A stretch of 64,000 nt of DNA from Candidatus Poribacteria bacterium (GCA_963666305.1 OY762722.1:3478432-3542431); one strand, 5' to 3'. Positions 36,348 through 61,317 are shown, numbered from the stretch's first letter. Made by a program: numbers and translations. Notes: generated from the letters alone by a model not told the origin.

Positions 36348-36401
36348 AGTTTTCTCCTTGTTTAGTAGTTGTCAGCAGTGAGGTTATCGTTTAACAAAAG
36401 T

Positions 36402-36445
36402 CTCTTTACTGATTGCTGATTGCTGACACCTGACGGCTGATTGCT
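36402..36445 (-). promoter_or_regulatory. Tandem-heptamer leader element (GTCAGCAATCAGCAATCAGTAAAGAGAC in gene orientation) upstream of the ECF sigma gene
   Basis: It shares the downstream 24 nt (CTGCTGACAACTACTAAACAAGGAG, including the RBS) exactly with the leader of 52578..53582. Related copies lie at 37899..37944 and 52447..52572. Confidence 0.45.
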
Positions 36446-37820
36446 ATTCAATCCATTGCATTGTTTCTCGGAGTTGTTCCTTTGCTTTGGCGTAATCTCG
36501 GCGCGCCTGATAAAAGACGCGTTGTGCTTCTGTGAACTGCGCTTGTGTTTGAAATGCATCGTTGTAAGTCATATTTTGATACCCCGGTATTTCAACCGTG
36601 ACCTCATCAAGCACGCGTTCTATGGTTCGTAACCTTTGCTCAAAAATCCGCACGCGTGTTTCTTCGATCTCCGCCCGTTCTCTGGCATTTGCCACCTCAC
36701 GATAGGCGCGTCGCACCGCGACACGGATTGACTTTGTTTTTTCGATATACGTCAAGTGCAACCGCTCCAGTTCTGCGATTTCTACAGCGCGGAGATTTTT
36801 CGTCTTGTTTCCATCGTAGAGCGGGATATTGAAGTTGAAACGCAGTTCCCACCCGTCTCGTGTTCGCGGACTGGTTTGAAAAATGCTTGACGCATCTCGC
36901 TCGCGATCGAGTATCACTGGATCATAGAGTGCCTTTGCGTCCCATGTTTGGTTCTGCTGATGTTGCTCGAGCAACACATGGAGATCCTTGTAGCGCGCTT
37001 CGGCAGAGAGTTCGGGGAATCGGTGCCAGAGTGTCTCTGCGGCGAGACGTTCTTGACGGAGCATATCGCCTTGTAAGTCGCGTAAACCAAGGTTGCTTGC
37101 GAGCGCGAGTTCAACAGCGGTTTCCAGGGTCAGATCGTCTTCAGGGAGCGGTTGTGAGAGCGTCACTTCTGAAAGTGGATCAAGTCCAGTGAGACGAATG
37201 AGTTCTGCGGTGTCCACGTCAAGTCGCCGTTGGAGTTCGTTGAGGGCGAGTTGCTGTTCGGAGAGTTCAAGTTCCGTATTGAGGCGACTGAGGAAAGGGA
37301 TCCGTTTCTCTGCGTGCTTGATTTGTGTGCCTTTGAGTTTTTTATTCAGTTCTACCTCAATCGCACGCCGTTCCTGAATCTCTTCCTGTGTGAGGATGAT
37401 ATTGTTCCAGAGATTACGAACATCGTGAACGCTCTGCTTTCTCACGCGTTCGTATTCAATCTCTGCCTTTCGGACTTCCTCCTGTGTGGCATCGAGACCT
37501 TCGGGGATCTCACCGAACTGGGCGAGAAGCATACTTGCCTGTGCGCGGGTGAGATAATCTCTTTCATCAATATCGCCATCTTTCTGGCGTTGATATTCAC
37601 CGGTGAGTCCAACTTGTGGCAGATAAACAGCCTTAGACACACGGAGGTTCGCCTTGGCACGTTCCACCACTTTTTCCGCTTTTTTCACCGCTTCGTTGTT
37701 CTGTAGAGCGAGCTCGATGGCGCGTGTAGGTTGTAGCGCGACGAGTCGTTGTCCTTGAGCAGAAACATCCACAATACTCAAAAGTAAACAGATTATGAAA
37801 ACCATCAATTCTTTGTTCAT
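36444..37820 (-). CDS. TolC-family outer-membrane efflux protein
   Basis: A signal peptide (MNKELMVFIICLLLSIVDVSAQ) is followed by TolC-like helical repeats (LALQNNEAVKKAEKVVERAKANLRVSKAVYLPQVGLTGEY..., and a second repeat with ...RAVEIAELERLHLTYIEKTKSIRVAVRRAYREV). The likely start is the ATG at 37820, preceded by GGAG. Confidence 0.7.
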   Translation of the reverse strand: MNKELMVFIICLLLSIVDVSAQGQRLVALQPTRAIELALQNNEAVKKAEKVVERAKANLRVSKAVYLPQVGLTGEYQRQKDGDIDERDYLTRAQASMLLAQFGEIPEGLDATQEEVRKAEIEYERVRKQSVHDVRNLWNNIILTQEEIQERRAIEVELNKKLKGTQIKHAEKRIPFLSRLNTELELSEQQLALNELQRRLDVDTAELIRLTGLDPLSEVTLSQPLPEDDLTLETAVELALASNLGLRDLQGDMLRQERLAAETLWHRFPELSAEARYKDLHVLLEQHQQNQTWDAKALYDPVILDRERDASSIFQTSPRTRDGWELRFNFNIPLYDGNKTKNLRAVEIAELERLHLTYIEKTKSIRVAVRRAYREVANARERAEIEETRVRIFEQRLRTIERVLDEVTVEIPGYQNMTYNDAFQTQAQFTEAQRVFYQARRDYAKAKEQLRETMQWIE

Positions 37821-37898
37821 TACAATCTCCATTATGTTGGCAGTCAGCCGTCAGTAGGGCGTGTGACGATTACAATCGTTTTCCCTCCGCCACAACGC

Positions 37899-37944
37899 TC
37901 TCTTTACCGATTGCTGATAGCGAAGCGGCTGATTGCTGACACCC
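37899..37944 (-). promoter_or_regulatory. Tandem-heptamer leader element copy upstream of the TolC-like gene
   Basis: In gene orientation: GTCAGCAATCAGCCGCTTCGCTATCAGCAATCGGTAAAGAGAG. Confidence 0.4.
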
Positions 37945-37949
37945 ATTCC

Positions 37950-40262
37950 TCAACGTCGGCTGATGCGGATTGTGACGATAACGATCCCAATCATCAGGAG
38001 TATCAACGCACCGAACAGCAGCGTCGTCACCGACATTTGCGTCTGAGACTCGACTTGTACAGTGATCGAACGGTCGCGTGCCTCAAATTTACGGTTATCG
38101 ACAGTGACTTCCGCATTCAACTTCGCTTGATATTCCCCTACACCGATGTCCGCAGGTGGACGCAACGTCAGTTGGATATCTGTTTCCTCGTTCCGTTTGA
38201 GTGAACCAATGACTTCAGGGATCACCGTGTATTTCCAATCCGTGTTGACATCGACAAGCATACGAATATCGACGAGATCGCGGGTACCGATGTTCTTTAG
38301 CGTCGCTGTCATGTTGACTTCTTCGCCAATTTTAATCGTCTGGAATGCGTTCGGCACGAATACCTCAATCTCCGGCACCCCCTTTGGAATCAGTTCAAAC
38401 CGTTCGACACCGCCTTGGATACCCGAAATCCTATCAGCGGGTAACTCCAACCGATTGTTAACACCCCCAAGTTCAGTGGCTTCCGCGTCATCAATCACGG
38501 CGACGTAGAACTCAAGCGTGCTGTCGAGATACGACGCATCCAATTCCTCTGGTAGATAGACAATCAACGACAGATTCCGCTTCGACTGTTCCTGCGTGAA
38601 CTTCACCTGTGACTGGCGAGATTTTGTCTCTGGATCTTGGAATTCAAAGGAGAGACGATTTAGCAGGTTAATGACGCGCAACTGGAATGTATTCTCCGTT
38701 TCTGCCAACCGATCGAGCGTCAAGTCGTAGGTGACGCTGCTTCCCAAGTTCCCTTCCTGCGAGAATCGGAGTGAGCTGACATTGACCACATCGAGTGCGG
38801 ATTCTTTTTGGAGATAGATGAGTCGCGTGTCGGGTTCGGCAAGTTCGGGGTATTTCAGCGATACCTTCAGACTCTCGACATCTTTCTGAAGTTGGAACGT
38901 CAGTTCCACGGTTTCATTGTAACCAAGGACTGGTATCTTCTCTTCATACGGCTTGACGATATTCGTATCATCGATAACGTCGAGTAAGGAGATATAAATC
39001 CCACGGATCTCATTCGCCGCGGCGATCTCTTCAGGTGTCGCGTTGATCGGCATTGCTTCTGTCGTTGACGTGTTTTTTAATTGGATTGTCACCATCATTT
39101 GCCCACCTGTATTACTGGCGATACGAAACTTCTTCGCACTCAGGATAGAGATATGACGTGTGTCCTCCTCAAGATGGATTTTATAGGGGATTTCCTGATC
39201 GAGGTATTTCAGGCTGACAATGAGACTATCAACATTTCGCCGGAGTTCAAAATCGAGAGTTTTCTCCTGTCCATCTTTGAGTGTCGGAATGCGATATTCA
39301 TAAGGAAAGCCGATGATAGATTCCGTATCATCTTTGATGGAGACATAGACATTGTTGATTTCTTGTGCCGTTGCTTCTTCCGAGTAACCGGCGGAGGTAC
39401 CGGTGCCTGTTTCTTCTGTTTCGCCATTGATTGCACCATACGTGAGCACGACTTCCAGATACCGCCGATCCCCCTGTTTGTAGCGCCTCGCAGACACGAC
39501 AGAGATATACGGATCCTCCTGTTTCAGATGGATGTTCTTCTGGTCCTCGCGCCCTGAGTACGTCAACGCTACAACGACATCTCGCACATTCTCTTTTATC
39601 AGCTCAAACTCCAAAGTGATAGATTCACCCTCTTTGAGCGTCTCAATGCGTCGTTCGTAAGGTTCAGTGATAATCGCTCCACTGGCACCATAACTTTCCT
39701 GTTCTTTAATCGAGACGAAGATATCGTCAATCTGTGCGCTGATAATAATTTCTCGTTCCAGCACTTTCGAGCTTTCAATGAGTTTGACGGGAGATGAGCT
39801 ATTCCGCAAAGTGATTGAGAACAACTCCCGACCATCGACGGATTCATACAGTCTTGTCTCTTCAACGGTGATATGCCACTCATCTTGTAGCGATTCAAGC
39901 TCTACCTGTTGGAGCGTCAATTTTGCCTGTTCATATTCATCGACAGCACGTTCGTAAGCCTCCTCGGCTTTATTGACTTCGGAGACAGTAACGATGTTGT
40001 TGTCCTCCATCATCATCGCCTTGAGGTTTTCAAGGTCAATCTGCTTTTTATTCATCAGTTTTTCTGCCAATTCCATTTTCAAACGCTCGACTTCTATCAG
40101 GATTTGGCGACTCTGTTCCTCTTTCGTTTTTGGATCGTTCCCATTGGCAAGCGAAACATCTTCGGATTCCGCTGCGGGTAGGGGCGAGGTCACCTCGCCC
40201 GTACTGAACAGCGATATCCCTATCACGCTAATGAAAACAATTGTAAGTATATTGGTTCGCAT
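37950..40262 (-). CDS. Large secreted repeat protein (770 aa) with N-terminal coiled coil, three or more ~120-aa beta-sandwich-like repeats, a NEW3/CARDB-like domain and a C-terminal TM anchor (COG1470-like)
   Basis: A signal peptide is followed by a coiled coil (ILIEVERLKMELAEKLMNKKQIDLENLKA). Internal repeats are present (EPYERRIETLKEGESITLEFELIKENV / FPYEYRIPTLKDGQEKTLDFELRRNV / KPYEEKIPVLGYNETVELTFQLQKDV). The NEW3/CARDB-like block is ATLKNIGTRDLVDIRMLVDVNTDWKYTVIPE...GEYQAKLNAEV. The C-terminal anchor is TLLFGALILLMIGIVIVTIRISRR. Confidence 0.55.
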   Translation of the reverse strand: MRTNILTIVFISVIGISLFSTGEVTSPLPAAESEDVSLANGNDPKTKEEQSRQILIEVERLKMELAEKLMNKKQIDLENLKAMMMEDNNIVTVSEVNKAEEAYERAVDEYEQAKLTLQQVELESLQDEWHITVEETRLYESVDGRELFSITLRNSSSPVKLIESSKVLEREIIISAQIDDIFVSIKEQESYGASGAIITEPYERRIETLKEGESITLEFELIKENVRDVVVALTYSGREDQKNIHLKQEDPYISVVSARRYKQGDRRYLEVVLTYGAINGETEETGTGTSAGYSEEATAQEINNVYVSIKDDTESIIGFPYEYRIPTLKDGQEKTLDFELRRNVDSLIVSLKYLDQEIPYKIHLEEDTRHISILSAKKFRIASNTGGQMMVTIQLKNTSTTEAMPINATPEEIAAANEIRGIYISLLDVIDDTNIVKPYEEKIPVLGYNETVELTFQLQKDVESLKVSLKYPELAEPDTRLIYLQKESALDVVNVSSLRFSQEGNLGSSVTYDLTLDRLAETENTFQLRVINLLNRLSFEFQDPETKSRQSQVKFTQEQSKRNLSLIVYLPEELDASYLDSTLEFYVAVIDDAEATELGGVNNRLELPADRISGIQGGVERFELIPKGVPEIEVFVPNAFQTIKIGEEVNMTATLKNIGTRDLVDIRMLVDVNTDWKYTVIPEVIGSLKRNEETDIQLTLRPPADIGVGEYQAKLNAEVTVDNRKFEARDRSITVQVESQTQMSVTTLLFGALILLMIGIVIVTIRISRR

Positions 40263-40347: not shown

Positions 40348-41082
40348 TTATGCGGCTGTGTCATCCGCAGGTTCGTATCCAGCAACGTAATGCAGATACA
40401 ACGCCTCGAGATCCTCTTTTAGAATTTCTTCGCGCGTTAGCTCCCGTTCAAGATTGCCTTGCACCAGAATACCGATTCTGTCAGCAACCTCCTTCGCACG
40501 GAAGATGTCGTGTGTAGACATAAAGATAGATTTCCCTTCCTCCTTTAGTTCACGGAGTAGATGCAGGAAATCGGCACCCCCCTTCGGATCCAAGCCGGAG
40601 GTCGGTTCATCAAGCAGGACGGCTTGTGCGTTTTTCATGATCGCAATCGCAATGCCCAAGCGTTGACGCATCCCCTTGGAGAAGGTCTTGACGCGCCGTG
40701 TAAAGGCTTCTTCCGGCAGGCCGACGCGTCCGAGTGTCGCATCGAGCTCCTCGTTTGATATCTTTTTGCGTCCGCCGAGTTTCGCGAAGAAGGACAGATT
40801 TTGCCGTGCTGTAAAGTTGCGATAGAGTTCCACATTCTCAGAAACGTAAGCGAGATGCTTCTTCGCTTCGAGTGGGAACTTCGGAATCTCAATGTCACCT
40901 ATCAATGCAGTGCCGCTTGTCGGTTCGATGAAGTTAAGTAGCATTGAGATGGTCGTGCTTTTCCCGGCACCGTTCGCACCGAGGACGACATAGATTTCAC
41001 CGTCGTCCACTTTCAGGTTCAATTTATTCAAGGCTAAGACACTTTCGTTATAGACTTTCGTAAGATCACGGGTTTCTAACAT
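40348..41082 (-). CDS. ABC transporter ATP-binding protein (ABC-2/CcmA-like)
   Basis: Walker A is GANGAGKST, the signature is FSKGMRQRLGIAIAIM, and Walker B is VLLDEPTSGLDP. It lies immediately downstream of the ABC-2 permease 41254..42696. Confidence 0.85.
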   Translation of the reverse strand: MLETRDLTKVYNESVLALNKLNLKVDDGEIYVVLGANGAGKSTTISMLLNFIEPTSGTALIGDIEIPKFPLEAKKHLAYVSENVELYRNFTARQNLSFFAKLGGRKKISNEELDATLGRVGLPEEAFTRRVKTFSKGMRQRLGIAIAIMKNAQAVLLDEPTSGLDPKGGADFLHLLRELKEEGKSIFMSTHDIFRAKEVADRIGILVQGNLERELTREEILKEDLEALYLHYVAGYEPADDTAA

Positions 41083-41253
41083 GGGTTTCTCCTTAGGTTA
41101 TTTTTTCCGCTTTATAATTAAGGATACAATTTTGAGGCAGAATGGGTGCATCGTGGAATGGTTAAGGGTATCAGTTATCGGTAAAGAGGTTTTCGTTTAG
41201 CCATATCCCTCTTTAACCGAAAACTGAAGACCGACGACCGATAACCACTCACA

Positions 41254-42696
41254 TTAAATATCGGAACGGAAGAACTTCAAAAACGCCACGACTGTGAACA
41301 CCAGTGCGAAAAAACCGAGTAAGAACACATCCACTGCGGAGCGGCGCAATGTGTCCGATAAAGCAGGTTCTATTAACATTGGTGGCGGCAGGATTTCGTC
41401 TGTTTCGGATTCAGAAGAATCATTCACTCGATTCATCACTTGTAGCATCTGTGCCATCGCGTCGTCTGAAATTGTGCTGAAATATGTATCATCAAGTTGA
41501 TCATAGTACCGCTCGCCCGTTTGAAAGTAGGTATCCCTTTTTAACGTGCCGGTTTGTGTGAGGTTCATTGCAAAATAGGTGAGTGAAGACGTTGGTGCGA
41601 TCCGGGAGAGCATCTCACCAACCTGCTCTTGCCGATCCTTTTCGCGTTGATAGTCCCTGTCAATTTTACCCGATTGATTCTGGAACTCCAGTCGAAACTG
41701 TTCATCAATCGGGCCTCTGAGTTTATCCAACCTTTTTTGCGTCTCTGGATCGTTTAGGTTAATACGAACACTACCGCCGCTCTCAAAAGCTAAAGCCATT
41801 TTTTTGTTAATCTTGTCTTGCTTATCTTTCATGAGGTTATTGTGAAGTGCGCTTTTTTCCATATAAACAGCCTGCTGTGTCCGAGTGGGTGCGACGAGTT
41901 TCGCGACGACAAACGCGCCTCGCGGCGCGATCAGCACTGCAAATACCCAAAACGTAAAAGCGACAATGAGCGCAGTCTTGGCGTTGTCGAGATACGTTGA
42001 AATGACGACACCTATCGCAAAAAAGACCGCAATATAGAGCAGCGAGACAAGCGTCAGACCCAGCACCGGCAGTGCAACCTTAAGCTCACCGAGCGGAAAT
42101 CCCTGCCAGACGATTAGGAGCAACCCCAAGAGGAAGGATACCAAAAAGGGAATGACGAACACGATGTATCCACCGATCAGCTTGCTCCACAGAAACACAT
42201 CTCGGGGAAGCGGATTTGACAGATTTATCCGGAGCGTGCCTGCCTCTCTTTCTCCGGCAACAGCATCAAATGTGAACAGAAGTGCCAGCAGGCTGAAAAC
42301 CGTCCCGATAATAAACAGGAAATCAAGGTTCCCGAGTGCATACGCCACGGATGCCTGAGAAATCCCTGCTGAACCTTGTCGAACGCCATTACGCGTCATC
42401 CCAAGATAGGTCGGCAGTGCTTCTTCTAAACCGTTTGCGAAGACGCTCAAAGGTGTAGGTTTGAGGAAGAACTTAGAGACTTCCACGTTTGGGTCCTGTG
42501 CGTTCGGTGGATTCTCCTTTGCTTCTGCGCGTGTGCGTTTTACCGATTCTTGATAATCTGTCACATTCTGGCTATATCTACGATAATTGATGGAAAGGGT
42601 GAGCGGGATGAGCAGCGCACACATCAGCAAGAGTGCGACGAACCGGACGCTGAGAATGTGATGCATAATCTCTTTTTGAATCAATGTCGTTAACAT
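41254..42696 (-). CDS. ABC-2 family transporter permease
   Basis: It is a paralog of 30968..32392 (MLTTLIQKEIMHHILSVRFVALLLMCALLIPLTLS..., with a C-terminal ...AFLKFFRSDI shared). It has multiple TM segments and is paired with the ATPase 40348..41082. Confidence 0.7.
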   Translation of the reverse strand: MLTTLIQKEIMHHILSVRFVALLLMCALLIPLTLSINYRRYSQNVTDYQESVKRTRAEAKENPPNAQDPNVEVSKFFLKPTPLSVFANGLEEALPTYLGMTRNGVRQGSAGISQASVAYALGNLDFLFIIGTVFSLLALLFTFDAVAGEREAGTLRINLSNPLPRDVFLWSKLIGGYIVFVIPFLVSFLLGLLLIVWQGFPLGELKVALPVLGLTLVSLLYIAVFFAIGVVISTYLDNAKTALIVAFTFWVFAVLIAPRGAFVVAKLVAPTRTQQAVYMEKSALHNNLMKDKQDKINKKMALAFESGGSVRINLNDPETQKRLDKLRGPIDEQFRLEFQNQSGKIDRDYQREKDRQEQVGEMLSRIAPTSSLTYFAMNLTQTGTLKRDTYFQTGERYYDQLDDTYFSTISDDAMAQMLQVMNRVNDSSESETDEILPPPMLIEPALSDTLRRSAVDVFLLGFFALVFTVVAFLKFFRSDI

Positions 42697-42771
42697 GGTA
42701 ATTTCTCCTGTGTTTTTTACGTGAGTTCGGTTGCATCTCTTTTACCGAACTCACGTTATTGTAGATTGAAG

Positions 42772-44088
42772 TCAATTGAGGGATAATACGTCAGCGGACA
42801 ACAATACCGATAGCTGCTGGAGTATATCCTGTCCCTCTTCGGTTTTTAGAAATTCTTCTCCGAGTTGCGCTTCAAGTTGCGACTGTAGTTGTACCTTAAT
42901 TTGATCCCCCACCTGCGGTATTGCTTCTTTGAGGATACTCATCCCCATTGGTGTTTGGAGAATGTCTTTTCCGAGTTGTGCTTCAAGCTGAGAAACAATC
43001 TCTTTCTCCAAGGCATTCAGCAGTTGTGGTACGAATTTTTTCAGGACTAATTCTTCAGTTGCCTGCTTGAGTTTTTCTCTACCTTCTTGGGTCTTGAGAA
43101 ACGCGTTTCCGTGTTGTTTACGTAAGTCACGCACAATGTCAGCGAGCGCGGAGAATCCCATTTTGTTGCTATTATAGATGTCTCTTTGCGGACCGTTACG
43201 ATAGAGTTTTCCGCTGAGACTGAGGTTGAGACGATGGTGTTCACAGCGAACGATAGGGACCATATCACCTTCCTGTGTCCACAGCATTTGTTGACCGTCT
43301 TTCTCAGAAGGCCGAATCTCGTAGAGATAGCTGCACGGAAGTGTTGGATCCGCAGCATCTTCGGTGAGAACTCCAGGGACTCCTGCTGTTGGATCTGCTG
43401 GACAAAGGATTACGTTCTTCTCCAAATATTGCGGAGAAAGATCGGAAAGCCATTGTGGGTCTGTATCTGCATTGGAAGTCCTATAGTCATCACGGGCGCG
43501 TTTTATCAGCCTCAAATTTTCTCTGCACGTCTCAATACCTTTGGAAGCCTCAGAACTTTGTTGCGCTGAGAGTGAGGCAAGTTCGTGCGGATAGGCATCT
43601 GCTAAGAGGCACCGGTTTAGGCGAATCAACGCTTCCCCACTTTTCGGGTTTTCTGCGATGAGTACCTGCGTCTGTTCACTGAGTTCAATATTGGCGAACC
43701 GTTGCGTATCGTAGAGAGAACTCCCTTGAAGCAGCTGATTTAGGTCTGAAAGCAATACTTCTTGCTGCTGAGCGGAAGGGGTGCTTGTGCCGTTGTATCC
43801 GAGTAGCACCCACTGCATATCTTCGGACAATTGCGATGCAATCCATTCGGACACCGGTGCACGCGTGTCTTGGAGTTTCACAATCAAACTGCCAGGGTCC
43901 TTAATCGCATCCGCATCCAAGAGGTGCTGAGGTGTGCCTGCATGGAGCGGCGGTTGGATTGCCATTGCCATGAATAGAATTGTGAGCAAGGTTGTCGCAC
44001 AAACGGTTAATTTGTGTAATCTGTGTCGCAAACTAAAAGTTTGCGCTACAATTGGTCTGGAGGGTCGAATCGTTTTTAACATTTTCAA
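42772..44088 (-). CDS. Secreted hypothetical protein with C-terminal amphipathic repeats
   Basis: A long N-terminal signal/anchor is present (TVCATTLLTILFMAMAIQPPLHA). The C-terminal repeats are LEAQLGKDILQT.../LEAQLGEEFLKTEEGQDILQQ. Confidence 0.5.
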   Translation of the reverse strand: MKMLKTIRPSRPIVAQTFSLRHRLHKLTVCATTLLTILFMAMAIQPPLHAGTPQHLLDADAIKDPGSLIVKLQDTRAPVSEWIASQLSEDMQWVLLGYNGTSTPSAQQQEVLLSDLNQLLQGSSLYDTQRFANIELSEQTQVLIAENPKSGEALIRLNRCLLADAYPHELASLSAQQSSEASKGIETCRENLRLIKRARDDYRTSNADTDPQWLSDLSPQYLEKNVILCPADPTAGVPGVLTEDAADPTLPCSYLYEIRPSEKDGQQMLWTQEGDMVPIVRCEHHRLNLSLSGKLYRNGPQRDIYNSNKMGFSALADIVRDLRKQHGNAFLKTQEGREKLKQATEELVLKKFVPQLLNALEKEIVSQLEAQLGKDILQTPMGMSILKEAIPQVGDQIKVQLQSQLEAQLGEEFLKTEEGQDILQQLSVLLSADVLSLN

Positions 44089-44132
44089 AATCTCCTTTTT
44101 TGTTTGTTTTCGGTTTTAACTATCGTTAATTG

Positions 44133-47100
44133 CTAATTAATTTTAAAACGTAACACACCACTGCCAGCGGTACCGACATAAAGCACGTTCTCCTCAACAG
44201 CAAGAGAGGTAATAGGCATTGGGATTTCCGGGGCAACCTGTTCCCACACACCAGTATTCTCTTTCAATCGATACACGTGTCGCTCGCTTGTCCCATACAG
44301 CGTTGTCCCGCCTATTGCAAACCTTTCTATAAGGATAGGCGCGCCTTCTGTATCCGTTGTTGCGTGCCAGTGAACGCCATCATTGGAGAACGCAACTCCC
44401 TTATCGGTCGCGACATAAACGGTGGATCCTGTAAAGGTTACTCCCTTGAAATGTGCAACAGGAAAGGGGAGGCTCGCCGTAACATCGTTCCACGTATTTC
44501 CCTCATCAAACGATTGGAAGAGATGTCCATCCCATTTACCGACGTAGATAGTACTCCCTGAAACCGCAAGGTTGGAAGGGAGGGAATCAGGATTGTTAGC
44601 GCTGTCAATCATATCGACAGGAAGTTCATTGATGAGTCCGGTATTCACCCATTCAGTTGCGCCGGCTTTCCATCTGAAGAGTCTTTGCTCATACTCCATA
44701 TAGTAAGTATCACCACTGACAGCGAAACCCCCGATAACCGACCTCACAATTTCACCCAGGAGCTCCTCTAAGGCCGGACTATAGTCTTCAACAAATGCCT
44801 CCATATCTAAATCTTCAAGGATATTATCTTCAAGGATGTTTTGCTGTCCGTCAGTCTGGTCTGTTACTGGCAGAATTTCCTTGAAACGTTCTTCCATCAG
44901 CTTGGTATAGTCTGTCTCCTTTAAAAATGGCATACCCGGAACAGACGTTAACCGATTATCCTCGGTAGATAAGCGAAAGAGGCGGGGGTGAGGTGTCGTG
45001 TCGTCTATAGCTCTGGCGTAGAGCAGATCGTTGAATCTCACCAACTGAATAATGTTTCCGAGGCTGCTTGGAACAAGTGTCCATGACTCGCCCGCATTAG
45101 ATGAGGTGAGAAGTGTGCCTCCGACGTTAGCATAGAGCACATTCTGCACAGAAACTAAATTCATCACGGCTGTCTTTACCAATCCAGCGTTAAACGGATG
45201 CCACGTTTTGCCGGTATCGGTTGTGCGATAAATCCCGGACTCTCCGTTCCAATAGAAGGTATTTGCATTCAAAGACACGAGCGTGGAAACATCTCCTATG
45301 CCCGGTATACTTGAATCCAAAGTAACCCAGGTGTCCCCTGCGTCATTTGAATAATAACCGTTTCCGTCGTCCACTACGAAAAGGTTGTCTTCCACTGCTA
45401 CCATTTCAAAGATTAAAGTCGTTTTCGTTTCTGCGTCCTTAGGACTCTCCTTGCCATTTTGGGCGGATTCCGGAGCTGCAGGTTCAACCCGAATCGTCAT
45501 GCTAACTTGGGGGGAAGGCTCTGTTTCTGTTTTTTTGTAGTCTAATGTCTGCCACGAATCTCCCAAATCTGTTGAACGGTACAGGGATAGAGATGCCTTC
45601 CATACTATTCGCGCTGGCAGCCCGAACCCAAAATCCTTGTTCACCACCTTGTCCCCCACGGCAACATAGAGTCGATACCCGGCACTTGCCAGTGCGCGGA
45701 TATTGCGGGTCTTATGGTCTTCATCCACCGGTAATAGCGTCCAATCTTCGGAACTACGGCGATACAGTCCAAAATCGGTCCCAACAAATACGACATCTTC
45801 AATAGTAGTGATTGCGCGGATTTCTTTGTTCACCAACTTCTCGCTTACGGGATCCCATGATTTCCCAGCGTCCACGGAACGGAATACGCCATCAACAAGT
45901 CCCAAGTACATTGTAATATCGGTTTGCTCTCCAGGGATCCCATCTGTTATGACGAGGTCAATCAGCTGTCCTTCTGGACGTGTGCCGAGTGAATTCCACG
46001 TCTCGCCTCTGTCCATTGAAGCGAGGACTTCCGTATCAGAAACAACATAGAGGGTATTCTCATGTTCTGTCATTTGCCATGACCCATTGATGGACATGTT
46101 GCTACTGACAAGCCCCCACCGACTTTTATCGTCCGCCAATCTATAGAGATCGGTATCTGTTCCGGCGTAAGAATCGCCGTTAGCTGCGATGAACAGGTTC
46201 TGCACGCTGCCACCTTCGGGGCCCTTTGTTTGGCTCCACTGAGGTTTGGGTGTTGGGACTTCTGCGGTGTCAATAGGCAGCGTAGCAACAAGGGATTCTT
46301 CGGATTTCTGTCCTTCCCCTGGACTTTTACCGGGGAGCACGGAACTTCCTGCTTGACTCCGTATTGCAGGTTTCGCAGGGGAATCGTAAACAAAAACCGC
46401 GTCAATAATTTCAACCGTCGGTTCCGATGTTGCATCTAAATTGTAAGGCTTCTGAAAACGGGAGAGATATTGCGTGCCAACACCCATCAGCAGGAAAAGC
46501 AAAACAGCCGAAGCCGCAGAAAGTGCCAAGGGTGCCACCGGTTTACTCACTGCAGGTGGCGGAACAGGGGACATACGCGAGACTTCCTGCATGATGTTAT
46601 CCGCTAAGGTATCAGGGAGTTGGAAGCTGCCAAGATTCTCCTGAAGCACGTCTTCCTCTTGCCGCAAACGGTTGCGTGCACGACTGAGTCGGCTCTTGAT
46701 GGTGTTCTGGGACACACCGAGAAACTCGGAAATGGATTTGATTGTCATCTCGCCAAGGTAATGCATCATCATCACCGTCCGCTCACTCTCTGGCAGCTTT
46801 TGGAGCAGTTTCTTGACGACTTCACGCCGTGATTCATCGGCATCGGCTGCCTGTTTTTCTGCTACATATCGAGAATATGACACTTTGTCCACCTCATTCG
46901 TATTGTCGGCATCTAAGGATTCCATCGGTAGGCGATTCTTTTTCAGATAGTCGCGACACAGGTTTGCCGCGATAACATAAAGCCATCCTGCAAATTGGTT
47001 ATGGTTTTTCAATGTTCGGAGTTTCTTATACGCGGTGAGGAACGCGTCTTGCGTAATTTCTTGTGCGATATGAAAATCACCGATCTTCCGCCACGCAAGT

Positions 47101-47198: not shown

Positions 47199-47304
47199 CG
47201 AAAATCTCCTCCGGAATTATTGCCTTTATGATAGAAGGAACGTAACCTTAAGCAATTCGATTGATGAAACTTTGAAAAATAGTAAGATGTTGCTTCTGTA
47301 AGAT

Positions 47305-48659: not shown

Positions 48660-48691
48660 GTGACGACTCTTAGGTACCGAAAGGTTGCATT
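48660..48691 (-). promoter_or_regulatory. ECF-type promoter copy upstream of the small secreted ORF / TolB-like operon
   Basis: In gene orientation: AAATGCAACCTTT-CGGTACCTAAGAGT-CGTCAC. Confidence 0.6.
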
Positions 48692-48964
48692 TTTTTAGAA
48701 AAAAGTGAAAAATCATAGGACTTCCGTAGATATACTTTCAAAACGCGGGTATTTCCAAAAACAGCGGGGTTTGTAGTAGCGCAATTCATTGCGCTTTGCG
48801 TAAACCCTAAATGAAATAAATCTTGATTCAGGCAACAAAAAAGGGAACCGGTAAAACTAGCTCCCTTTTAACATTTATTGGACTTCGGAATCTACGCTGA
48901 TAGTCCCGCGACTGCTAAATGGCAAATCCCTGATCTAAATTGCGCATCGTTCCAATCTTTGCCG

Positions 48965-51455: not shown

Positions 51456-51487
51456 GTGACGACACTTGAGTCTCGAAAGGTTGCATT
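51456..51487 (-). promoter_or_regulatory. ECF-type promoter copy upstream of the TonB-dependent receptor
   Basis: In gene orientation: AATAATGCAACCTTT-CGAGACTCAAGTGT-CGTCAC. Confidence 0.6.
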
Positions 51488-51619
51488 ATTTTGTAATTTT
51501 CTTTTCTACTTCCTGAAATATGTGTTATACTTTTGTATACATACTTTTGGCACATCCTGCCAGTCGAAACCTGCTATACAAAAGTTGGAACTACGACATG
51601 CTCAACTCGGAGGCATAGC

Positions 51620-52438
51620 ATGGAACACCATATAACAAATGAACAGTGGGAACATTTTGAGGAGAACGGCTACGTACGTATCGGACAAGTCGCAACGGAT
51701 ACCGAACTCGCGAAACTGCAAGAGCGGATGGATGACATCATGCTCGGTAAAGCACCCCTGGATTATGACCAAATCATGATGCAACTGGATCGGGCGCCCG
51801 GAAAAGACTCGCCAGGACCGCAGTCTAAAGGGCACAAAGGTGCCACGTTACTGTATCGGAAGATACAGAACCTTGAACTCGATCCGATTTTCTTGGAGTA
51901 CCTCCAGAAACCGGTTTTCCAAGAAGTCTGCGCGAAAATCTACGGAGATGATACCCCTATTGCCTGTTTTCGGGCAATGTTTATGAACAAACCCGCACAC
52001 GAAGGGACTCAGCTCACATGGCATCAAGACAGGTGGAGAGATCTCGATCGAGACCCGAAAATTACGATTTATACCGCCTTGGATCCAGCAATGATTGAGA
52101 ACGGCTGCGTACACATCATTCCGAAATCGCATAGCAGGCTCATCAATCCTGAAAACGGATCCGGTTTTCTAACACAGGAACACATTGACGACATCGTTGC
52201 CCAGACAACACCACTCCCGATGGAGTTGAAGGCGGGAGAAGTCGTTTTACTCCACAATTGGATGCTACACAGTTCCGGGACAAATGACACGGATATTCCG
52301 CGGCGCGCCTTCAGCGTCTGCTACATGCATGGCGAGACGACGTCGCATCACGGACATGCCTTTACGCGGGTGTTCGGCGACGGGGCGATCCGTATTGACG
52401 ATTTATCGAAGTTTAAGTATGAAAGCCCAATCGTTTAG
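51620..52438 (+). CDS. Phytanoyl-CoA dioxygenase (PhyH) family oxygenase (third paralog)
   Basis: GGAGG lies 6 nt before the ATG at 51620 (MEHHITNEQWEHFEENGY...). The motifs are TWHQDRW, IYTALDP...NGCVHIIPKSHS and VLLHNWMLHSSGTN. Confidence 0.7.
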   Translation: MEHHITNEQWEHFEENGYVRIGQVATDTELAKLQERMDDIMLGKAPLDYDQIMMQLDRAPGKDSPGPQSKGHKGATLLYRKIQNLELDPIFLEYLQKPVFQEVCAKIYGDDTPIACFRAMFMNKPAHEGTQLTWHQDRWRDLDRDPKITIYTALDPAMIENGCVHIIPKSHSRLINPENGSGFLTQEHIDDIVAQTTPLPMELKAGEVVLLHNWMLHSSGTNDTDIPRRAFSVCYMHGETTSHHGHAFTRVFGDGAIRIDDLSKFKYESPIV

Positions 52439-52446
52439 ATTTGGGA

Positions 52447-52572
52447 GCAGCCAGCAATCAGAAATCGGCAATCAGTAAAGAGACTCTCGTTAAACAATAA
52501 CCTCTTTCACTGACTGCTGAAAGGATTTTTGAAAAAATCCGCCCTGATTGCTGACAACTACTAAACAAGGAG
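52447..52572 (+). promoter_or_regulatory. Tandem-heptamer leader element (longest copy, with internal 8-bp hairpin) upstream of the Gfo/Idh/MocA gene
   Basis: The sequence is GCAGCCAGCAATCAGAAATCGGCAATCAGTAAAGAGACTCTCGTTAAACAATAACCTCTTTCACTGACTGCTGAAAGG-GGATTTTTGAAAAAATCC-GCCCTGATTGCTGACAACTACTAAACAAGGAG. The last 24 nt are identical to the leader of the ECF sigma gene 35748..36347. Confidence 0.45.
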
Positions 52573-52577
52573 AAAAT

Positions 52578-53582
52578 ATGTCGAAAATTCGACTTGCCAT
52601 GATTGGATGTGGCGGAAACTCATCAGGCCACGCCAGACGAATGAACGCAAATCCTGACGTACAAATCGTCGGTACCTGCGATGTGAATACCGACATCGCT
52701 AACGGCTATATTGATCGGAATCTGTCTGATCTGAGTCCACGACCCAGTGCCTATGACGACATCGGCACGCTGCTGAAAGAGACATCGCCGGATGCCGTGG
52801 TCATCTCTACACCGCACACGCTCCACTTTGAGCAGGGGATGCAGGCACTTGAAGCCGGATGCCATGTCTTGATGGAAAAGCCGATGGTTACGTCTTCTAA
52901 AGATGCGTATACCATCGCAGAAAAGGCGGAAGAGACCGGATTAACGCTGACGATCGGCTACAATACGCCATGCACACCCAATTTCTATTATACCCGAGAA
53001 ATTATCCGTAGTGGGGAATTTGGCAAGTTGGAATTGGTCATTGGCTATATCACACAAGGCTGGAAAGGTGGCACAACCGGAACGTGGCGGCAGAATCCGA
53101 AACTTTCTGGCGGTGGGCAAGCTTACGATAGTGGCGCACACCTTCTGAACAGTCTCTGCTGGGCAGTCGAGTCGAAAGTCGCCGAAGTCTATGCCTATAC
53201 GGACAACCAAGATCGGGATGTTGATATCAATTCCTCAATCAACGTCAAGTTTGAAAGCGGTGTTCTCGCAGCAATGGCGGTGAGTGGCAATTGCCCAAGC
53301 CCTGGTGGTACGCACATGGCGTTGGTTTTTGAGAACGGTAGGATCGAGGTTGATGGCTGGAGTGGCGGTTGGATTCGCGTCTGGAAAGGTAATGAAGCGT
53401 TGGATCCGCCTCCGATTACAGATGACATGTCCGCGGGTTCGCCTGATGATAACTTCATTGACACTCTCTTGGGTAGAGCGGAACCCCGTACCAATCCAAT
53501 GAATGGGATTATCCAATCTGAACTGATGGATCTCATTTACGAATCCGCCGAAACGGGAGTTCCCGCGCGTCCTGAACGCTAA
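52578..53582 (+). CDS. Gfo/Idh/MocA family NAD(P)-dependent oxidoreductase
   Basis: The Rossmann motif is MSKIRLAMIGCGGNSSGHA. The family pattern is EKPMVTSSKDAYTIAEKAEETG. AAGGAG lies before the ATG at 52578. Confidence 0.8.
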   Translation: MSKIRLAMIGCGGNSSGHARRMNANPDVQIVGTCDVNTDIANGYIDRNLSDLSPRPSAYDDIGTLLKETSPDAVVISTPHTLHFEQGMQALEAGCHVLMEKPMVTSSKDAYTIAEKAEETGLTLTIGYNTPCTPNFYYTREIIRSGEFGKLELVIGYITQGWKGGTTGTWRQNPKLSGGGQAYDSGAHLLNSLCWAVESKVAEVYAYTDNQDRDVDINSSINVKFESGVLAAMAVSGNCPSPGGTHMALVFENGRIEVDGWSGGWIRVWKGNEALDPPPITDDMSAGSPDDNFIDTLLGRAEPRTNPMNGIIQSELMDLIYESAETGVPARPER

Positions 53583-55803: not shown

Positions 55804-56075
55804 GTCTTTTGCTCTTGTCCTCTGTCTTTTAATTCAGAATAGTGTATAATATATGATACGTGAACCTTCTGGGTTTGTCAAATAAAAAATGGTTATCAGT
55901 TATCGGTTGTCGGTAAGAGGATTGGATAAGGAAAATCGCCGAAGTTAGATAACGTTTAGAGGATATTACGATAATTCTATGAAGGAGAACTTTCAATCAA
56001 GAAGACGGCATCATCCTGAGAATCCTCTAATCCTGCAAATCCTGATTCAGACAATGAATAAGGAGTACTCCCACA

Positions 56076-59664: not shown

Positions 59665-59843
59665 TTGAATCTTATCGGGGTTTTCCTCAATGTCTTGCCA
59701 TTATATCAGTCTCTCCGAAAATATTCTGCTTTTTTAATAGTTTCCAGTTATCGGTTAGGAGACGTTTGTAGAATTCACGATATACGCAACTACCACAGGC
59801 ACTGAACCGAAGACCGAGAACCGAAGACCGATAGCCATTATAT

Positions 59844-59872
59844 TTGACGTGTTCCGTGATTTGTGATATAAT
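59844..59872 (+). promoter_or_regulatory. Sigma70-like promoter with extended -10 for the Eis-like gene
   Basis: TTGACG, a 17-nt spacer, then TGaTATAAT. This is ~30 nt upstream of the 59904 start. Confidence 0.55.
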
Positions 59873-59903
59873 CCGTTTTGACACTACTTTATAAGGAACA
59901 TCA

Positions 59904-61232
59904 ATGCCAAAAAACAGTATTCTCTCACAGATGCCGATGGACCTCGGTGACAACTTGAAACTCCGATTTGCTACTCCTGCCGACACGGATGCTCTCGCTG
60001 AATTCAATACCCGTCTTCATGAAGAAGTGAGCGTGGATCCAGGCACCCGAGACTTGATGTCAGGAGATCACCCCACCTGCAAAGCAAGCGATTTTACCGT
60101 CGTTGAAGATACGAAGGCACGGAAAATCGTGTCATCTCTCTGTCTCATCTCGCAGACCTGGACGTATAGTGGGATCCCTTTCAAGTTCGGGCAACCCGAA
60201 TTCGTCGCAACTGAACCTGAGTACCGCAGAAGAGGCTTAGTCCGCAAGCAGTTCGAGGTCATCCACGCGTTGAGCGAGGCACGCGGTGAATTGATGCAAG
60301 GTATCACAGGTATCCCATGGTATTACCGATTGTTCGGATATGAGATGGCACTGGATATGGAGGCAGAGCGTGTTATTGACGGGATACACATCCCAGCATT
60401 GAAAAAAGGGCAGAACGAGACGTGTCGGCTCCGACCACGAACGGATTCAGATAATGCTTTCATTCAAGACATTTATGAGCGTACTATTGAGCGCAAGGTC
60501 TTTGTTTGCCATCGGACATCGGAGATGTGGGAATATGAATTCACTGGACGTTCTGCGGGAAGTGAAGCACGGCATGAATTCTTACTCATCGAAGATATGG
60601 AAGGGACGCGACTCGGTTATGTCCAACATTTTCAATGGTGTTACGAAAATTTTCTTATCATGCAAATGGAGCTTAAACCGGGGGTTGGCTGTCTACATCA
60701 TATCCCATCACTACTGCGAGCGTTGTGGAAAAAGGCAGAGACGACACCAATTGTCGCCGAAAATGACAACCCGAAAGCAACAGGTGTGCAGTTCATGTTG
60801 GGACGTGAGCATCCGGTCTATCAGGCATTACCCAAAGGCGTTGTTCGTAAGGAGTCGCCCTACGCGTGGTATATCCGCGTGCCAAATTTAACAGCGTTTC
60901 TACGGCATATCCAACCCGCACTCGAAAAACACCTCATCGGCACCATCGCAGAGGGTTACACGGGTGAGCTTAAACTCAACTTCTATCGAAGTGGGGTACA
61001 CCTCAAATTTGAACGAGGTCGCGTCACAGACATTGCCGATTGGACTCCGAAAGACGTTGAGGAGGGGGATGCGGCGTTCCCTGAATTAACTTTTTTACAA
61101 CTGCTGTGCGGACGGTGTCGAACAGAAGAGTTGGTATCAAATTTCGTTGATTGCTGGACGAACGGCAGTTCTCCGGCAGTCCTACTCGATTGCCTGTTCC
61201 CGACATTCGCTGGCGAGGTTTGGCATCTCTAA
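59904..61232 (+). CDS. Eis-like GNAT acetyltransferase (GNAT + C-terminal SCP2-like region)
   Basis: The GNAT core is VATEPEYRRRGLVRKQFEVIHALSEARGELMQGITGIPWYYRLFGYEMA, an RRRGL...YxxFGY pattern as in Eis. Total length is 442 aa. Confidence 0.55.
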   Translation: MPKNSILSQMPMDLGDNLKLRFATPADTDALAEFNTRLHEEVSVDPGTRDLMSGDHPTCKASDFTVVEDTKARKIVSSLCLISQTWTYSGIPFKFGQPEFVATEPEYRRRGLVRKQFEVIHALSEARGELMQGITGIPWYYRLFGYEMALDMEAERVIDGIHIPALKKGQNETCRLRPRTDSDNAFIQDIYERTIERKVFVCHRTSEMWEYEFTGRSAGSEARHEFLLIEDMEGTRLGYVQHFQWCYENFLIMQMELKPGVGCLHHIPSLLRALWKKAETTPIVAENDNPKATGVQFMLGREHPVYQALPKGVVRKESPYAWYIRVPNLTAFLRHIQPALEKHLIGTIAEGYTGELKLNFYRSGVHLKFERGRVTDIADWTPKDVEEGDAAFPELTFLQLLCGRCRTEELVSNFVDCWTNGSSPAVLLDCLFPTFAGEVWHL

Positions 61233-61284
61233 TTGGTTGTCCGTCGTCAGTCTTCAGTTAAGAGATGGCTTGGTAAAACAAAGT

Positions 61285-61317
61285 CTCTCTTTAACCGATA
61301 ACCGATAACTGATAACC
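61285..61317 (+). promoter_or_regulatory. Tandem-heptamer leader element, Y-variant (CTCTCTTTAACCGATAACCGATAACTGATAACC)
   Basis: It lies directly upstream of the 61327 gene. The same variant (in gene orientation) lies upstream of argB (55891..55920), comEC (59744..59763) and the ABC ATPase (41166..41189). Confidence 0.4.

What the first reader, a model, noticed from the sequence alone, without database searches (positions are those of the whole stretch)
36351..61317. Dispersed tandem-heptamer leader element (CTCTTTA + (CYGATWR)2-3) in two mirror-image variants upstream of at least 7 unrelated genes
The X-variant in gene orientation is GTCAGCAATCAG..GCAATCAGTAAAGAGAC. It precedes the stand-alone ECF sigma (36402..36445), the TolC-like gene (37899..37944) and Gfo/Idh/MocA (52447..52572). 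The ECF sigma and Gfo/Idh/MocA leaders also share an identical 24-nt RBS-proximal segment CTGCTGACAACTACTAAACAAGGAG. The Y-variant in gene orientation is CTCTTTAACCGATAACCGATAACTGATAACC. It precedes the 61327 membrane protein, argB (55891..55920), comEC (59744..59763) and the ABC ATPase (41166..41189). X is approximately the reverse complement of Y, with heptamer CAATCAG versus TTATCGG. Direct heptamer repeats in a fixed orientation relative to the start codon suggest a binding site for a global regulator such as a response regulator. Alternatively the elements may be a REP-like dispersed element that has colonised 5' UTRs.
Basis: seen in the sequence. Interest (0 to 1): 0.55.

Follow-up and report, generated by a model that had tools for sequence, protein, structure and literature searches.

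The report
Heptamer-armed palindromic repeat elements of Poribacteria
The "leader motif" is one arm of an abundant, previously undescribed family of palindromic repeat elements built from 7-base tandem repeats; these elements fill the gaps between genes, and sometimes sit in frame inside genes, in the sponge-symbiont phylum Poribacteria, and they behave like invasive repeat DNA rather than a gene switch.

Summary
The sequences are real and far beyond chance (12 matches to CYGAN3CYGAN3CYGA against 0.05 expected). The reading as two mirror-image leaders is wrong. The unit is an arm with three parts: a head CTCTTTA(A), 2-8 heptamers CYGANNR (commonest CTGATAA, which is TAACTGA), and a tail CYATT. 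Arms mostly occur as head-to-head inverted pairs around a palindromic centre of three kinds. The difference CTGATTG versus CCGATAA marks two subtypes.

A scan of 185,579 species genomes found the pattern overwhelmingly in Candidatus Poribacteria, at several hundred arms per genome. Orientation relative to genes is about 50:50. Tails abut stop codons as tightly as ribosome-binding sites. Copies lie in convergent, divergent and tandem spacers. Orthologous spacers can be filled, differently filled or empty. Complete elements also sit in frame inside real genes (PBP1C, TlyA, alpha-2-macroglobulin).

This refutes a fixed-orientation regulator site. The closest relatives are TAACTGA heptamer repeats, BIME/REP elements and Rickettsia palindromic elements. 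The spreading mechanism and any host function remain unknown.

The parts
30938..30963 (+). Headless single arm: CTGAAGA CCGAAGA CTGATAA plus tail CTACT. It ends 4 nt before the stop codon (TGA, 30968-30970 on the - strand) of the ABC-2 permease gene 30968..32392(-).
   Evidence: It is paralogous to arm 41217-41249, and the junction of the segmental duplication lies inside the array.
35473..35506 (-). Single arm with a weak head (CTTGTTTT): CCGACTC CTGACTG CTGAAAG plus tail CCATT. It points towards the ECF-sigma fusion gene 32567..35392(-).
36360..36384 (-). Element A, near (sense) arm, short: head CCTCAC, CTGCTGACAA, tail CTACTAAAC. The SD AAGGAG and the ATG of the ECF sigma gene 35748..36347(-) follow directly.
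36385..36401 (.). Element A centre, type I (TTATCGTTTAACAAAAGT; core GTTTAAC).
   Evidence: The orthologous copy is in L033.
36402..36448 (+). The CTA of the tail is the TAG stop of the TolC-like gene 36444..37832(-).
37836..37859 (-). Element B near arm: head CCCTA, CTGACGG CTGACTG, tail CCAAC. The start region of the TolC-like gene follows directly.
37860..37899 (.). Element B centre, type II (CGTGTGACGATT...CCGCCACAACG; inverted TGTGGC/GCCACA family).
37900..37947 (+). It ends 2 nt before the TGA stop of gene 37950..40262(-).
41163..41189 (-). Element F/G arm towards the ABC ATPase gene 40348..41082(-): head CCTCTTTA, CCGATAA CTGATAC, tail CCTTA.
41190..41208 (.). Element F/G centre, type I (TTTTCGTTTAGCCATATCC).
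41209..41249 (+). Element F/G arm towards the end of the ABC-2 permease gene 41254..42696(-): head CTCTTTAA, 4 units, tail CCACT. The TAA stop lies 4 nt further.
   Evidence: The whole doublet folds with z = -4.9 and -4.2 on the two strands.
52447..52482 (-). It begins 8 nt after the stop of the PhyH gene 51533..52438(+).
52483..52501 (.). Element C centre, type I (ACTCTCGTTAAACAATAAC).
52502..52562 (+). Element C near arm: head CTCTTTCA, CTGACTG CTGAAAG, mini-hairpin module (GGATTTT-TGAA-AAAATCC, 52523-52540), CTGATTG CTGACAA, tail CTACT. SD 52567-52572 and the ATG 52578 of the Gfo/Idh/MocA gene follow.
   Evidence: (z = -4.7 and -5.6). The orthologous spacer is differently filled in L042 and empty in L108.
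55888..55920 (-). Single arm upstream of argB: head CCTCTTA, CCGACAA CCGATAA CTGATAA, tail CCATT. An 11/12 sigma-70-like promoter (55881..55853, -) follows 6 nt after the tail.
   Evidence: An orthologous arm is in L042.
59744..59839 (.). Doublet in the divergent comEC / GNAT spacer: left arm (-) 59744-59763 (GTCTCCTAA CCGATAA CTGG), type II-like centre 59764-59801, right arm (+) 59802-59839 (4 units plus tail CCATT). An 11/12 promoter (59844-59872, +) follows the right tail.
61237..61320 (.). Element D doublet: left arm (-) 61237-61264 (head CTCTTAA, CTGAAGA CTGACGA CGGACAA), centre 61265-61286, right arm (+) 61287-61320 (head CTCTTTAA, CCGATAA x2, CTGATAA, tail CCACT). It spans from 4 nt after the TAA stop of gene 59904..61232 to 6 nt before the ATG at 61327. 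No SD is present.
   Evidence: z = -5.1 and -4.4.

Best explanation
These are copies of a phylum-wide family of interspersed, mosaic, palindromic repeat elements. Each arm has a head CTCTTTA(A), a variable tandem array of heptamers CYGANNR (TAACTGA-type, subtype A or G) and a tail CYATT. Two arms usually face head to head around one of at least three palindromic centre modules. An optional small hairpin module can sit inside an arm. The family behaves as invasive, non-coding repeat DNA, like REP/BIME elements, MITEs and Rickettsia palindromic elements. It is gained, lost and replaced at a given site. It survives wherever it does no harm: in spacers of any gene arrangement, in either orientation, and in frame in tolerant protein loops. 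Its arrays change length in 7-nt steps, presumably by slippage (inferred). When a spacer copy is transcribed it is predicted to fold into a long imperfect hairpin reaching from the stop codon of the upstream gene to the ribosome-binding site of the downstream gene. Effects on mRNA stability, termination-codon ribosome stalling or translational coupling are therefore likely by-products or secondary domestication (inferred, not shown). The enzyme or process that spreads the elements is not identified.
For: Anatomy: the tail is C .85, Y .92, A .76, T .57, T .70, and the head is conserved; both are identical whichever way the arm faces. There are 71 head-to-head pairs against 1 tail-to-tail pair. 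The three centre types are seen. The two arms of a pair share a subtype in 38 of 41 pairs. The window is syntenic with Poribacteria chromosome OZ246979.1 at 84-97% identity. Period 7 dominates the tandem repeats (190 of about 420), and about 165 of those 190 have a CYGANNN unit. Neutrality towards genes: orientation is 61:73 in tandem spacers, with 15 arms in convergent and 13 in divergent spacers. Tails lie a median 6 nt from stop codons and 21 nt from start codons. Folding energy shows no strand bias (27 against 21, p = 0.36). The mini-hairpin occurs in arms of both orientations. Turnover: the W / L042 / L108 spacer is G-type, A-type and empty respectively. W and L033 carry different elements at the same site. 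A clean 93-nt presence/absence is seen between L103 and L080. An element is present in 39 orthologous spacers and absent in 24. In-frame copies inside genes: the PBP1C transpeptidase domain, the TlyA FtsJ domain, an A2M linker, and DUF4340, AsmA, POR and Opp genes, about 21 arrays in all. Hairpin potential: z = -4.2 to -5.6 for three window doublets. Twenty of 20 context-selected mini-hairpins are perfectly paired, with 6 different stems.
Against: No transposase or RAYT-like gene was found next to copies; genes enclosed head-inward are housekeeping genes. No target-site duplication is visible at filled and empty sites. No near-identical full-length copies occur at different loci of one genome, though only a few doublets per genome were sampled. 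Arms of a doublet do not match unit by unit (identity 0.51 against 0.44 permuted), so a precise hairpin is not maintained. The conserved CYGA core, the 7-nt register and the presence of similar arrays in distant phyla could instead reflect recognition by a conserved host protein. The two best sigma-70-like promoters in the region sit directly after arm tails.
Confidence: 0.65

Rival explanations
1. The heptamer arrays are tracks for a sequence-preferring single-strand nucleic-acid-binding protein with a 7-nt footprint, such as a cold-shock-domain or S1-type protein, or for a DNA-binding regulator. Binding would be nucleated at the head, forming a global (post-)transcriptional network as proposed for TAACTGA repeats in Beggiatoaceae.
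For: The register is a strict 7 nt, with an invariant C-Y-G-A core and purine at position 7, while positions 5-6 are free. The head (G)TCTCTTTA resembles the best Bs-CspB heptamer GTCTTTA (from memory; MacGregor 2015, PMC4679880, also cites one CspB per heptamer). Near arms end right at the SD or start codon. Gene 61327 has the array in place of an SD. The same unit TAACTGA lies next to start codons in Beggiatoaceae, cyanobacteria and Bacteroidetes.
Against: Orientation is about 50:50. Copies occur at gene 3' ends, in convergent spacers and inside coding regions. Orthologous genes do without the element. No binding protein has been identified.
Confidence: 0.15
2. The doublets are host-functional RNA hairpins in polycistronic mRNAs. 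They would act as intercistronic stabilisers, processing sites, U-tract-less terminators or translational-coupling devices, working as REP/BIME elements do in E. coli operons.
For: Doublets fold with z = -4.2 to -5.6 and span exactly from stop codon to SD. Canonical hairpin-plus-U-tract terminators are not enriched in 30-64 kb (25 against 19 and 17 against 15 expected). In about 60 of 93 cases the stop codon lies within 9 nt of the last unit of the arm. From memory, that is the range in which E. coli REPs stall terminating ribosomes (Liang, Rudd and Deutscher 2015).
Against: There is no strand asymmetry in folding energy. There is no unit-level covariation between arms. Single arms are common. 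Copies lie in divergent promoter regions and in ORFs. Empty orthologous sites exist.
Confidence: 0.15
3. The arrays are plain microsatellites (STRR-like heptanucleotide slippage products) with no element identity.
For: Period-7 simple repeats are the commonest long simple repeats in many bacteria (Mrazek 2007 as summarised in PMC4679880). Units within an arm are often identical, for example CTGATCG x4 or CCGAGAG x3.
Against: Head and tail are conserved. Head-to-head pairing is obligatory (71:1). There are three recurrent centre modules and a conserved mini-hairpin module. Complete doublets lie inside genes.
Confidence: 0.04

Closest known systems
Intergenic TAACTGA heptamer direct repeats of marine Beggiatoaceae, cyanobacteria and some Bacteroidetes (MacGregor 2015, Front Microbiol 6:1397, PMC4679880); cyanobacterial STRR heptamers
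   Same: The unit is the same: the commonest Poribacteria unit CTGATAA is TAACTGA rotated. Both have 2-6+ tandem copies, 'split' sets with related heptamers, a mostly intergenic location, arrays ending at start codons, forward arrays carrying stop codons and reverse arrays translating as LSVISYQ-like peptides. Function is unknown in both.
   Different: In 'Maribeggiatoa', 147 of 170 sets point to a start codon and usually replace the SD. Only one inverted repeat was seen, and no head, tail or centre was described. Poribacteria arms are orientation-neutral, mostly paired head to head around palindromic centres, carry CTCTTTA heads and CYATT tails, use degenerate CYGANNR units of two subtypes, and are followed by a normal SD. 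Poribacteria are not in the published host list.
E. coli REP / BIME (bacterial interspersed mosaic elements) and REPINs
   Same: Both have hundreds of extragenic copies. Both are mosaics of inverted motifs joined by a small set of linker modules. Both have hairpin potential when transcribed, lie close to stop codons and show presence/absence between relatives.
   Different: REP units are themselves 20-40-bp imperfect palindromes with a GTAG or CGTC tag (PMC3733652 abstract). Here the arms are direct heptamer arrays without that tag. No RAYT gene was found, and copies are not near-identical.
Rickettsia palindromic elements (RPE) and other intragenic MITEs (review PMC10969869)
   Same: Both are palindromic repeats of about 100-150 bp found in spacers and, in frame, inside unrelated housekeeping genes, adding a peptide segment to the protein. 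No transposase is known for either.
   Different: RPEs are not built from tandem heptamers, and each family encodes a conserved peptide. Here length and sequence vary by unit. The in-ORF fraction is about 10% (about 21 of about 220 arrays), against nearly half for some RPE families.

Membership tests
TAACTGA-type intergenic heptamer direct repeats / STRR | Tandem direct repeats with a 7-nt period, 2 or more copies | tested here: met
TAACTGA-type intergenic heptamer direct repeats / STRR | The unit is TAACTGA; related heptamers are rarely repeated | tested here: inconclusive
   CTGATAA (= TAACTGA) is the commonest unit (34 arrays), but CTGACAA (27), CCGATAA (18), CTGAAAA (17) and the G-type units are nearly as common.
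TAACTGA-type intergenic heptamer direct repeats / STRR | Forward orientation towards a nearby start codon, replacing the SD (Beggiatoaceae pattern) | tested here: not met
   The split is 61:73 in tandem spacers and 24:26 for single arms. An SD usually follows the tail. Published cyanobacterial samples are also mixed.
REP / BIME / REPIN | The repeat unit is a short imperfect palindrome with a GTAG or CGTC tag | tested here: not met
   Arms are direct repeats. Only the optional mini-hairpin is palindromic, and it is flanked by GAAAG and GTA, not GTAG.
REP / BIME / REPIN | Inverted pairs joined by a limited set of linker motifs (mosaic structure); extragenic; hundreds of copies | tested here: met
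   The density is about 0.12-0.15 arms of 3 or more units per kb.
REP / BIME / REPIN | A cognate RAYT (Y1 HUH transposase) gene flanked by the repeats | tested here: inconclusive
   Six head-inward enclosed genes are NIPSNAP, SecF, MutY, MBL-fold, ClpP and nitroreductase. Whole genomes were not searched.
MITE | Terminal inverted repeats plus a target-site duplication | tested here: inconclusive
   The ends are inverted (AATRG...CYATT). No duplication is visible at the L103/L080 and W/L108 filled and empty sites, but only a few sites were examined.
MITE | Families of near-identical copies within a genome, derived from a parent IS | tested here: not met
   The best same-genome match between different loci is 38 nt at 92%. 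The sample per genome is small.
RPE-like intragenic palindromic elements | Palindromic repeats inserted in frame in unrelated conserved genes, with the ORF kept open | tested here: met
   PBP1C, TlyA/FtsJ, A2M and others. Orthologues carry elements of different length at the same site with intact ORFs.
Intrinsic terminator | GC-rich hairpin followed by a U tract | tested here: not met
   No element is reported by the terminator scan. Tails are followed by A-rich sequence on the sense strand.
Any Rfam family (riboswitch, leader, sRNA) | A match at the gathering score | tested here: not met
   There are 0 hits in the window and only tRNAs in 18 loci.

The most novel reading that the evidence does not exclude
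The elements are not merely junk. The head plus heptamer track could be a loading site for a protein with a 7-nt footprint (for example a cold-shock-domain protein, one per unit) that opens the stop-codon-to-SD hairpin. That would give Poribacteria a genome-wide, tunable (by unit number) post-transcriptional coupling system. The same system could explain the unexplained TAACTGA repeats of Beggiatoaceae, cyanobacteria and Bacteroidetes. Alternatively, the family is spread by an undescribed mechanism that builds arms by templated heptamer addition.
Probability: 0.12. Interest if true: 0.8.

Novelty: new variant of a known kind. Interest (0 to 1): 0.55.

Why it matters
Poribacteria are uncultivated sponge symbionts whose genome biology is known only from MAGs. 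By the density estimate, several hundred of these elements per genome occupy roughly a third of the longer spacers in this window, and they also modify proteins such as PBP1C and TlyA. They will confuse gene calling through read-through ORFs and apparent gene fusions, and they will confuse assembly and motif-based regulon prediction. They also give the enigmatic TAACTGA heptamer repeats a structured context: head, tail, centre and inverted pairing. This points to an invasive-element origin and offers unit-number polymorphisms as strain markers.

Tried and rejected
- **Rfam:** gathering-score scans of the window and of 18 loci found nothing but tRNAs.
- **Source look-up:** an exact-protein look-up for the source contig found nothing on record.
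- **Literature:** searches for Poribacteria with heptamer, Poribacteria-1, or intergenic palindromic returned nothing relevant.
- **Promoter in the doublet centre:** I considered an extended -10-like TGnTTAAAT with a transcript starting at CTCTTTA. I rejected it as a general reading. The centre core is itself a palindrome, the strong head points with the genes 15 times and against them 14 times, and the consensus scan finds no sigma-70-like site in any centre.
- **Mini-ORF in the centre:** the idea of AAGAGG-N3-ATG-ATT-TAA was dropped because the 'start' varies (ATG, GTG, TTG, CTG) and follows from the palindrome.
- **RNA-level selection:** there is no strand bias in folding energy, no sense-specific placement of the mini-hairpin and no unit-by-unit covariation between arms.
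- **Transposase next to copies:** none was found among head-inward enclosed genes.
- **Recent transposition:** no near-identical paralogous copies were found.
- **Chi-like reading of the G-type unit (GCTGATGG):** dropped because A-type arms lack it.
- **Viral contigs:** 8 stretches matched, two of them on one 78,675-bp IMG/VR contig, the same length as Poribacteria contig PYJC01000177.1. This was not pursued.


Full report
**1. The observation**

The cited sequences are present.
- Arrays of CYGA spaced 7 nt apart are far beyond chance. CYGAN3CYGAN3CYGA matches 12 times (8 arrays) against 0.05 expected, and none of 100 dinucleotide-preserving shuffles reaches 12.
- TRF independently reports period-7 arrays at 36409, 52452, 55891, 59806 and 61292.
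- CTCTTTA alone is not enriched (11 against 6.8 expected).
- The 24-nt identity between the ECF-sigma and Gfo/Idh/MocA leaders is exact.
- All window copies lie between ORFs, and none lies in the first 30 kb.

**2. Anatomy**

When every copy is written with CTCTTTA on the left, X and Y have the same polarity. Each has a head CTCTTTA(A), then n heptamers C-Y-G-A-N-N-R, then a tail.

In about 220 arrays from Poribacteria DNA the five bases after the last unit are C .85, Y .92, A .76, T .57, T .70. Nothing beyond them is conserved. Head and tail are the same whether the arm faces a gene start or a gene end.

The G subtype includes CTGATTG, CTGACGG and CTGACTG. The A subtype includes CCGATAA, CTGACAA and CTGAAAA.

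Arms are mostly paired head to head: 71 such pairs against 1 tail-to-tail pair. They flank a centre of three recurrent kinds:
- **Type I**, about 20 nt, with the quasi-palindromic core TGRTTWAAYCA.
- **Type II**, about 37 nt, TGTGGCAG...GCCACA.
- **Type III**, about 65 nt, GGTAACAAT...TTGGAATATTCCAA...ATTGTTACC.

The two arms of a pair share a subtype (A-A 22, G-G 16, mixed 3). They do not share unit sequences (identity 0.51 against 0.44 permuted).

Many arms carry a small inserted module after a CYGAAAG unit. Selected by context alone, 20 of 20 inserts fold as perfect 6-9-bp hairpins with six different stems and mostly GNA triloops. The window copy is at 52523-52540.

The near arm, next to the Shine-Dalgarno sequence, was overlooked (36360-36384, 37836-37859, 52502-52562).

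**3. Where it occurs**

The head plus three units was searched in one genome per species for 185,579 species.

The window is syntenic with Poribacteria chromosome OZ246979.1 at 84-97% nucleotide identity. I therefore take it to be a related Poribacteria genome.

In the Poribacteria loci period 7 is by far the commonest tandem-repeat period (190 of about 420 arrays). About 165 of those 190 have a CYGANNN unit. The commonest unit is CTGATAA, which is TAACTGA rotated.

The density is about 0.12-0.15 arms of 3 or more units per kb. I extrapolate several hundred arms per 5-6-Mb genome.

A few non-Poribacteria hits show the same head and head-to-head architecture (Terriglobia L060, Acidobacteriota L066). 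Others are cyanobacterial heptamer arrays.

**4. Relation to genes**

- With crude ORF calls, arms in tandem spacers point to a start 61 times and to an end 73 times. Fifteen arms lie in convergent and 13 in divergent spacers.
- Arms without a detectable partner split 24 to 26.
- Tails abut genes while heads do not. Tail to stop codon is a median 6 nt. In 15 of 93 cases the CTA of the tail is itself the TAG stop, as at 36444. Tail to start is a median 21 nt, which leaves room only for an SD. Heads are 100-126 nt from the nearest gene.
- A doublet therefore typically fills the whole spacer from stop codon to ribosome-binding site.
- The window doublets at 41150-41256, 52440-52582 and 61233-61330 fold into long, regularly interrupted hairpins on either strand (z = -4.2 to -5.6). 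The asymmetric element A does not (z = -0.2 and -1.5).
- Across 49 doublets in tandem spacers the transcribed strand does not fold better than its complement (27 against 21, p = 0.36).
- Mini-hairpins occur in arms of both orientations.
- The two best sigma-70-like promoters in 48-64 kb (11 of 12 matches) lie just after arm tails in the two divergent spacers, for argB and GNAT. There the element sits upstream of the promoters, not in the 5' UTR.

**5. Turnover**

At the PhyH to Gfo/Idh/MocA spacer three states are seen:
- the window has a G-type doublet with a mini-hairpin;
- L042 has an A-type element;
- L108 has only a 35-nt spacer with the same flanks and the same SD.

At the TolC-like spacer the window has a G-type, centre-II doublet, while the close relative L033 has an A-type doublet with other modules.

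L103 and L080 differ by a clean 93-nt block running from the first to the last unit, with no obvious target duplication.

Over 63 orthologous-spacer comparisons an element is present in 39 and absent in 24. At 96-97% flank identity a doublet is 99% identical (L030/L091). No near-identical copies were seen at different loci of one genome.

A segmental duplication in the window (30935-35410 and 41221-47216, 80% identity) has its junction inside an arm. This explains the headless arm at 30938.

**6. Copies inside genes**

Some arrays that my ORF caller placed inside ORFs are real in-frame insertions.
- **PBP1C-like gene.** In L094 a complete G-type doublet (about 4497-4642) interrupts the transpeptidase domain and is translated. 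The orthologue in L037 has a shorter element at the same place. A second site precedes the transglycosylase domain in four genomes.
- **TlyA/FtsJ methyltransferase.** In L079 the gene carries a 60-residue A-type doublet, including the mini-hairpin, between VIKLL and YDIIALLKPQFE. The L027 orthologue carries a 20-residue G-type element at the same site.
- **Alpha-2-macroglobulin.** The gene in L094 has a doublet where the orthologues have an unrelated linker.
- **Other genes.** Further cases lie in DUF4340, AsmA-like, POR and Opp-like ORFs.

In all, about 21 of about 220 arrays lie inside genes. Reverse arms have no stop codons and read as LSVISSQ-like peptides. Forward arms stay open through the choice of frame and through CCGA units.

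No transposase was found next to copies.

**7. Interpretation**

The following findings are what is expected of an invasive repeat family and not of a regulator site or a dedicated leader:
- orientation neutrality;
- presence in all spacer types and in ORFs;
- empty and replaced orthologous sites;
- a modular mosaic structure.

I therefore file the finding as a new, Poribacteria-wide family that combines two known themes.
- TAACTGA-type heptamer arrays were described in Beggiatoaceae, cyanobacteria and Bacteroidetes, with unknown function (PMC4679880).
- Mosaic palindromic interspersed elements include REP/BIME and, for the in-frame copies, Rickettsia palindromic elements (PMC10969869).

Shown: the anatomy, distribution, turnover, coding insertions and hairpin potential.

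Inferred: length change by slippage, mobility as a unit, and any effect on mRNA.

Not excluded: the conserved CYGA core and 7-nt register may reflect binding by a host protein. The head resembles the CspB-preferred heptamer GTCTTTA (from memory). Spacer copies may have been domesticated as intercistronic hairpins.

**8. Verdict**

The REP-like alternative is supported and extended. The finding is a new variant of known kinds, of moderate to good interest.

Noticed in passing
window 13168-13187, 29266-29285, 30848-30867, 35450-35469, 48677-48696, 51473-51492 (all + strand): There are six copies of AAAGGTTGCATT(A/T)TTTT (0-3 mismatches to TCAAAAGGTTGCATTATTTT; 0.01 expected). Five of the six, and possibly the sixth, lie upstream of minus-strand genes. 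Read in gene orientation the two perfect copies give TGCAACC-N17-CGTCA, which looks like an ECF-sigma-type promoter, 42-58 nt before the starts of the thioredoxin-like gene and the ECF-sigma fusion gene. This, rather than the heptamer element, is the fixed-orientation regulatory motif of the region.
   Followed up: partly
window 30935-35410 versus 41221-47216: This is a segmental duplication (about 80% identity) of an ABC-2 permease, a hypothetical gene and an ECF-sigma-BNR/Sortilin fusion gene. One junction falls inside a heptamer arm. Further paralogous pieces lie at 17.4-20.6 kb and 28.6-29.3 kb.
   Followed up: partly
window 56013-56050; L014 2461-2477, L044 1315-1331, L062, L083, L092: A second recurrent motif, AATCCTG(C)AAATCCTGATTCAGACAA, occurs. 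In the window it precedes the SD of the ADH gene. In L014 it directly precedes a heptamer array, as if it were an alternative head.
   Followed up: partly
L033 7090-7170; L061 2340-2420; L030 990-1020 / L091 3800-3840: A different heptamer family (TGGAAGN and its complement CTTCCAN) forms palindromic arrays. In L033 it replaces the right arm of the element that the window carries at 41209-41249.
   Followed up: no
L027 ~3990, L044 ~1200, L064 3540-3640: Another dispersed repeat, TTCCTGTAGGAGGGAACTCCGATTCCCGAC, lies next to heptamer arrays.
   Followed up: no
L060 (Terriglobia MAG) 5180-5260; L066 (Acidobacteriota MAG) rc 2500-2580; L112 (three arrays): In L060 and L066 the same head CTCTTTA, CTGAnnn heptamers and head-to-head pairing occur outside Poribacteria, in high-GC genomes; L112 carries three CTCTTTAC-headed CTGA arrays. 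The architecture is therefore not strictly phylum-specific.
   Followed up: partly
window 61316-61329: The gene 61327..61896 has no Shine-Dalgarno sequence. The arm tail CCACT is followed by AAAACA and then the ATG, as described for TAACTGA repeats in 'Maribeggiatoa'.
   Followed up: no
window 30000-64000: Hairpin-plus-U-tract terminator-like sites are no more frequent than in shuffled sequence (25 against 19.0 and 17 against 15.1), and none lies in a spacer that carries an element.
   Followed up: no
L072 2192-4243: A 683-residue ORF with two ABC_tran and two oligo_HPY domains (OppD-like and OppF-like halves) has a heptamer array exactly between the halves. The element may have fused two adjacent genes, or the ORF call may be an artefact of a stop-free array.
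   Followed up: no
L119 / L126 (IMGVR_UViG_2740892559_000001, 78,675 bp): An IMG/VR 'viral' contig carrying two copies has the same length as Poribacteria contig PYJC01000177.1. It may be the same contig flagged as (pro)viral.
   Followed up: no
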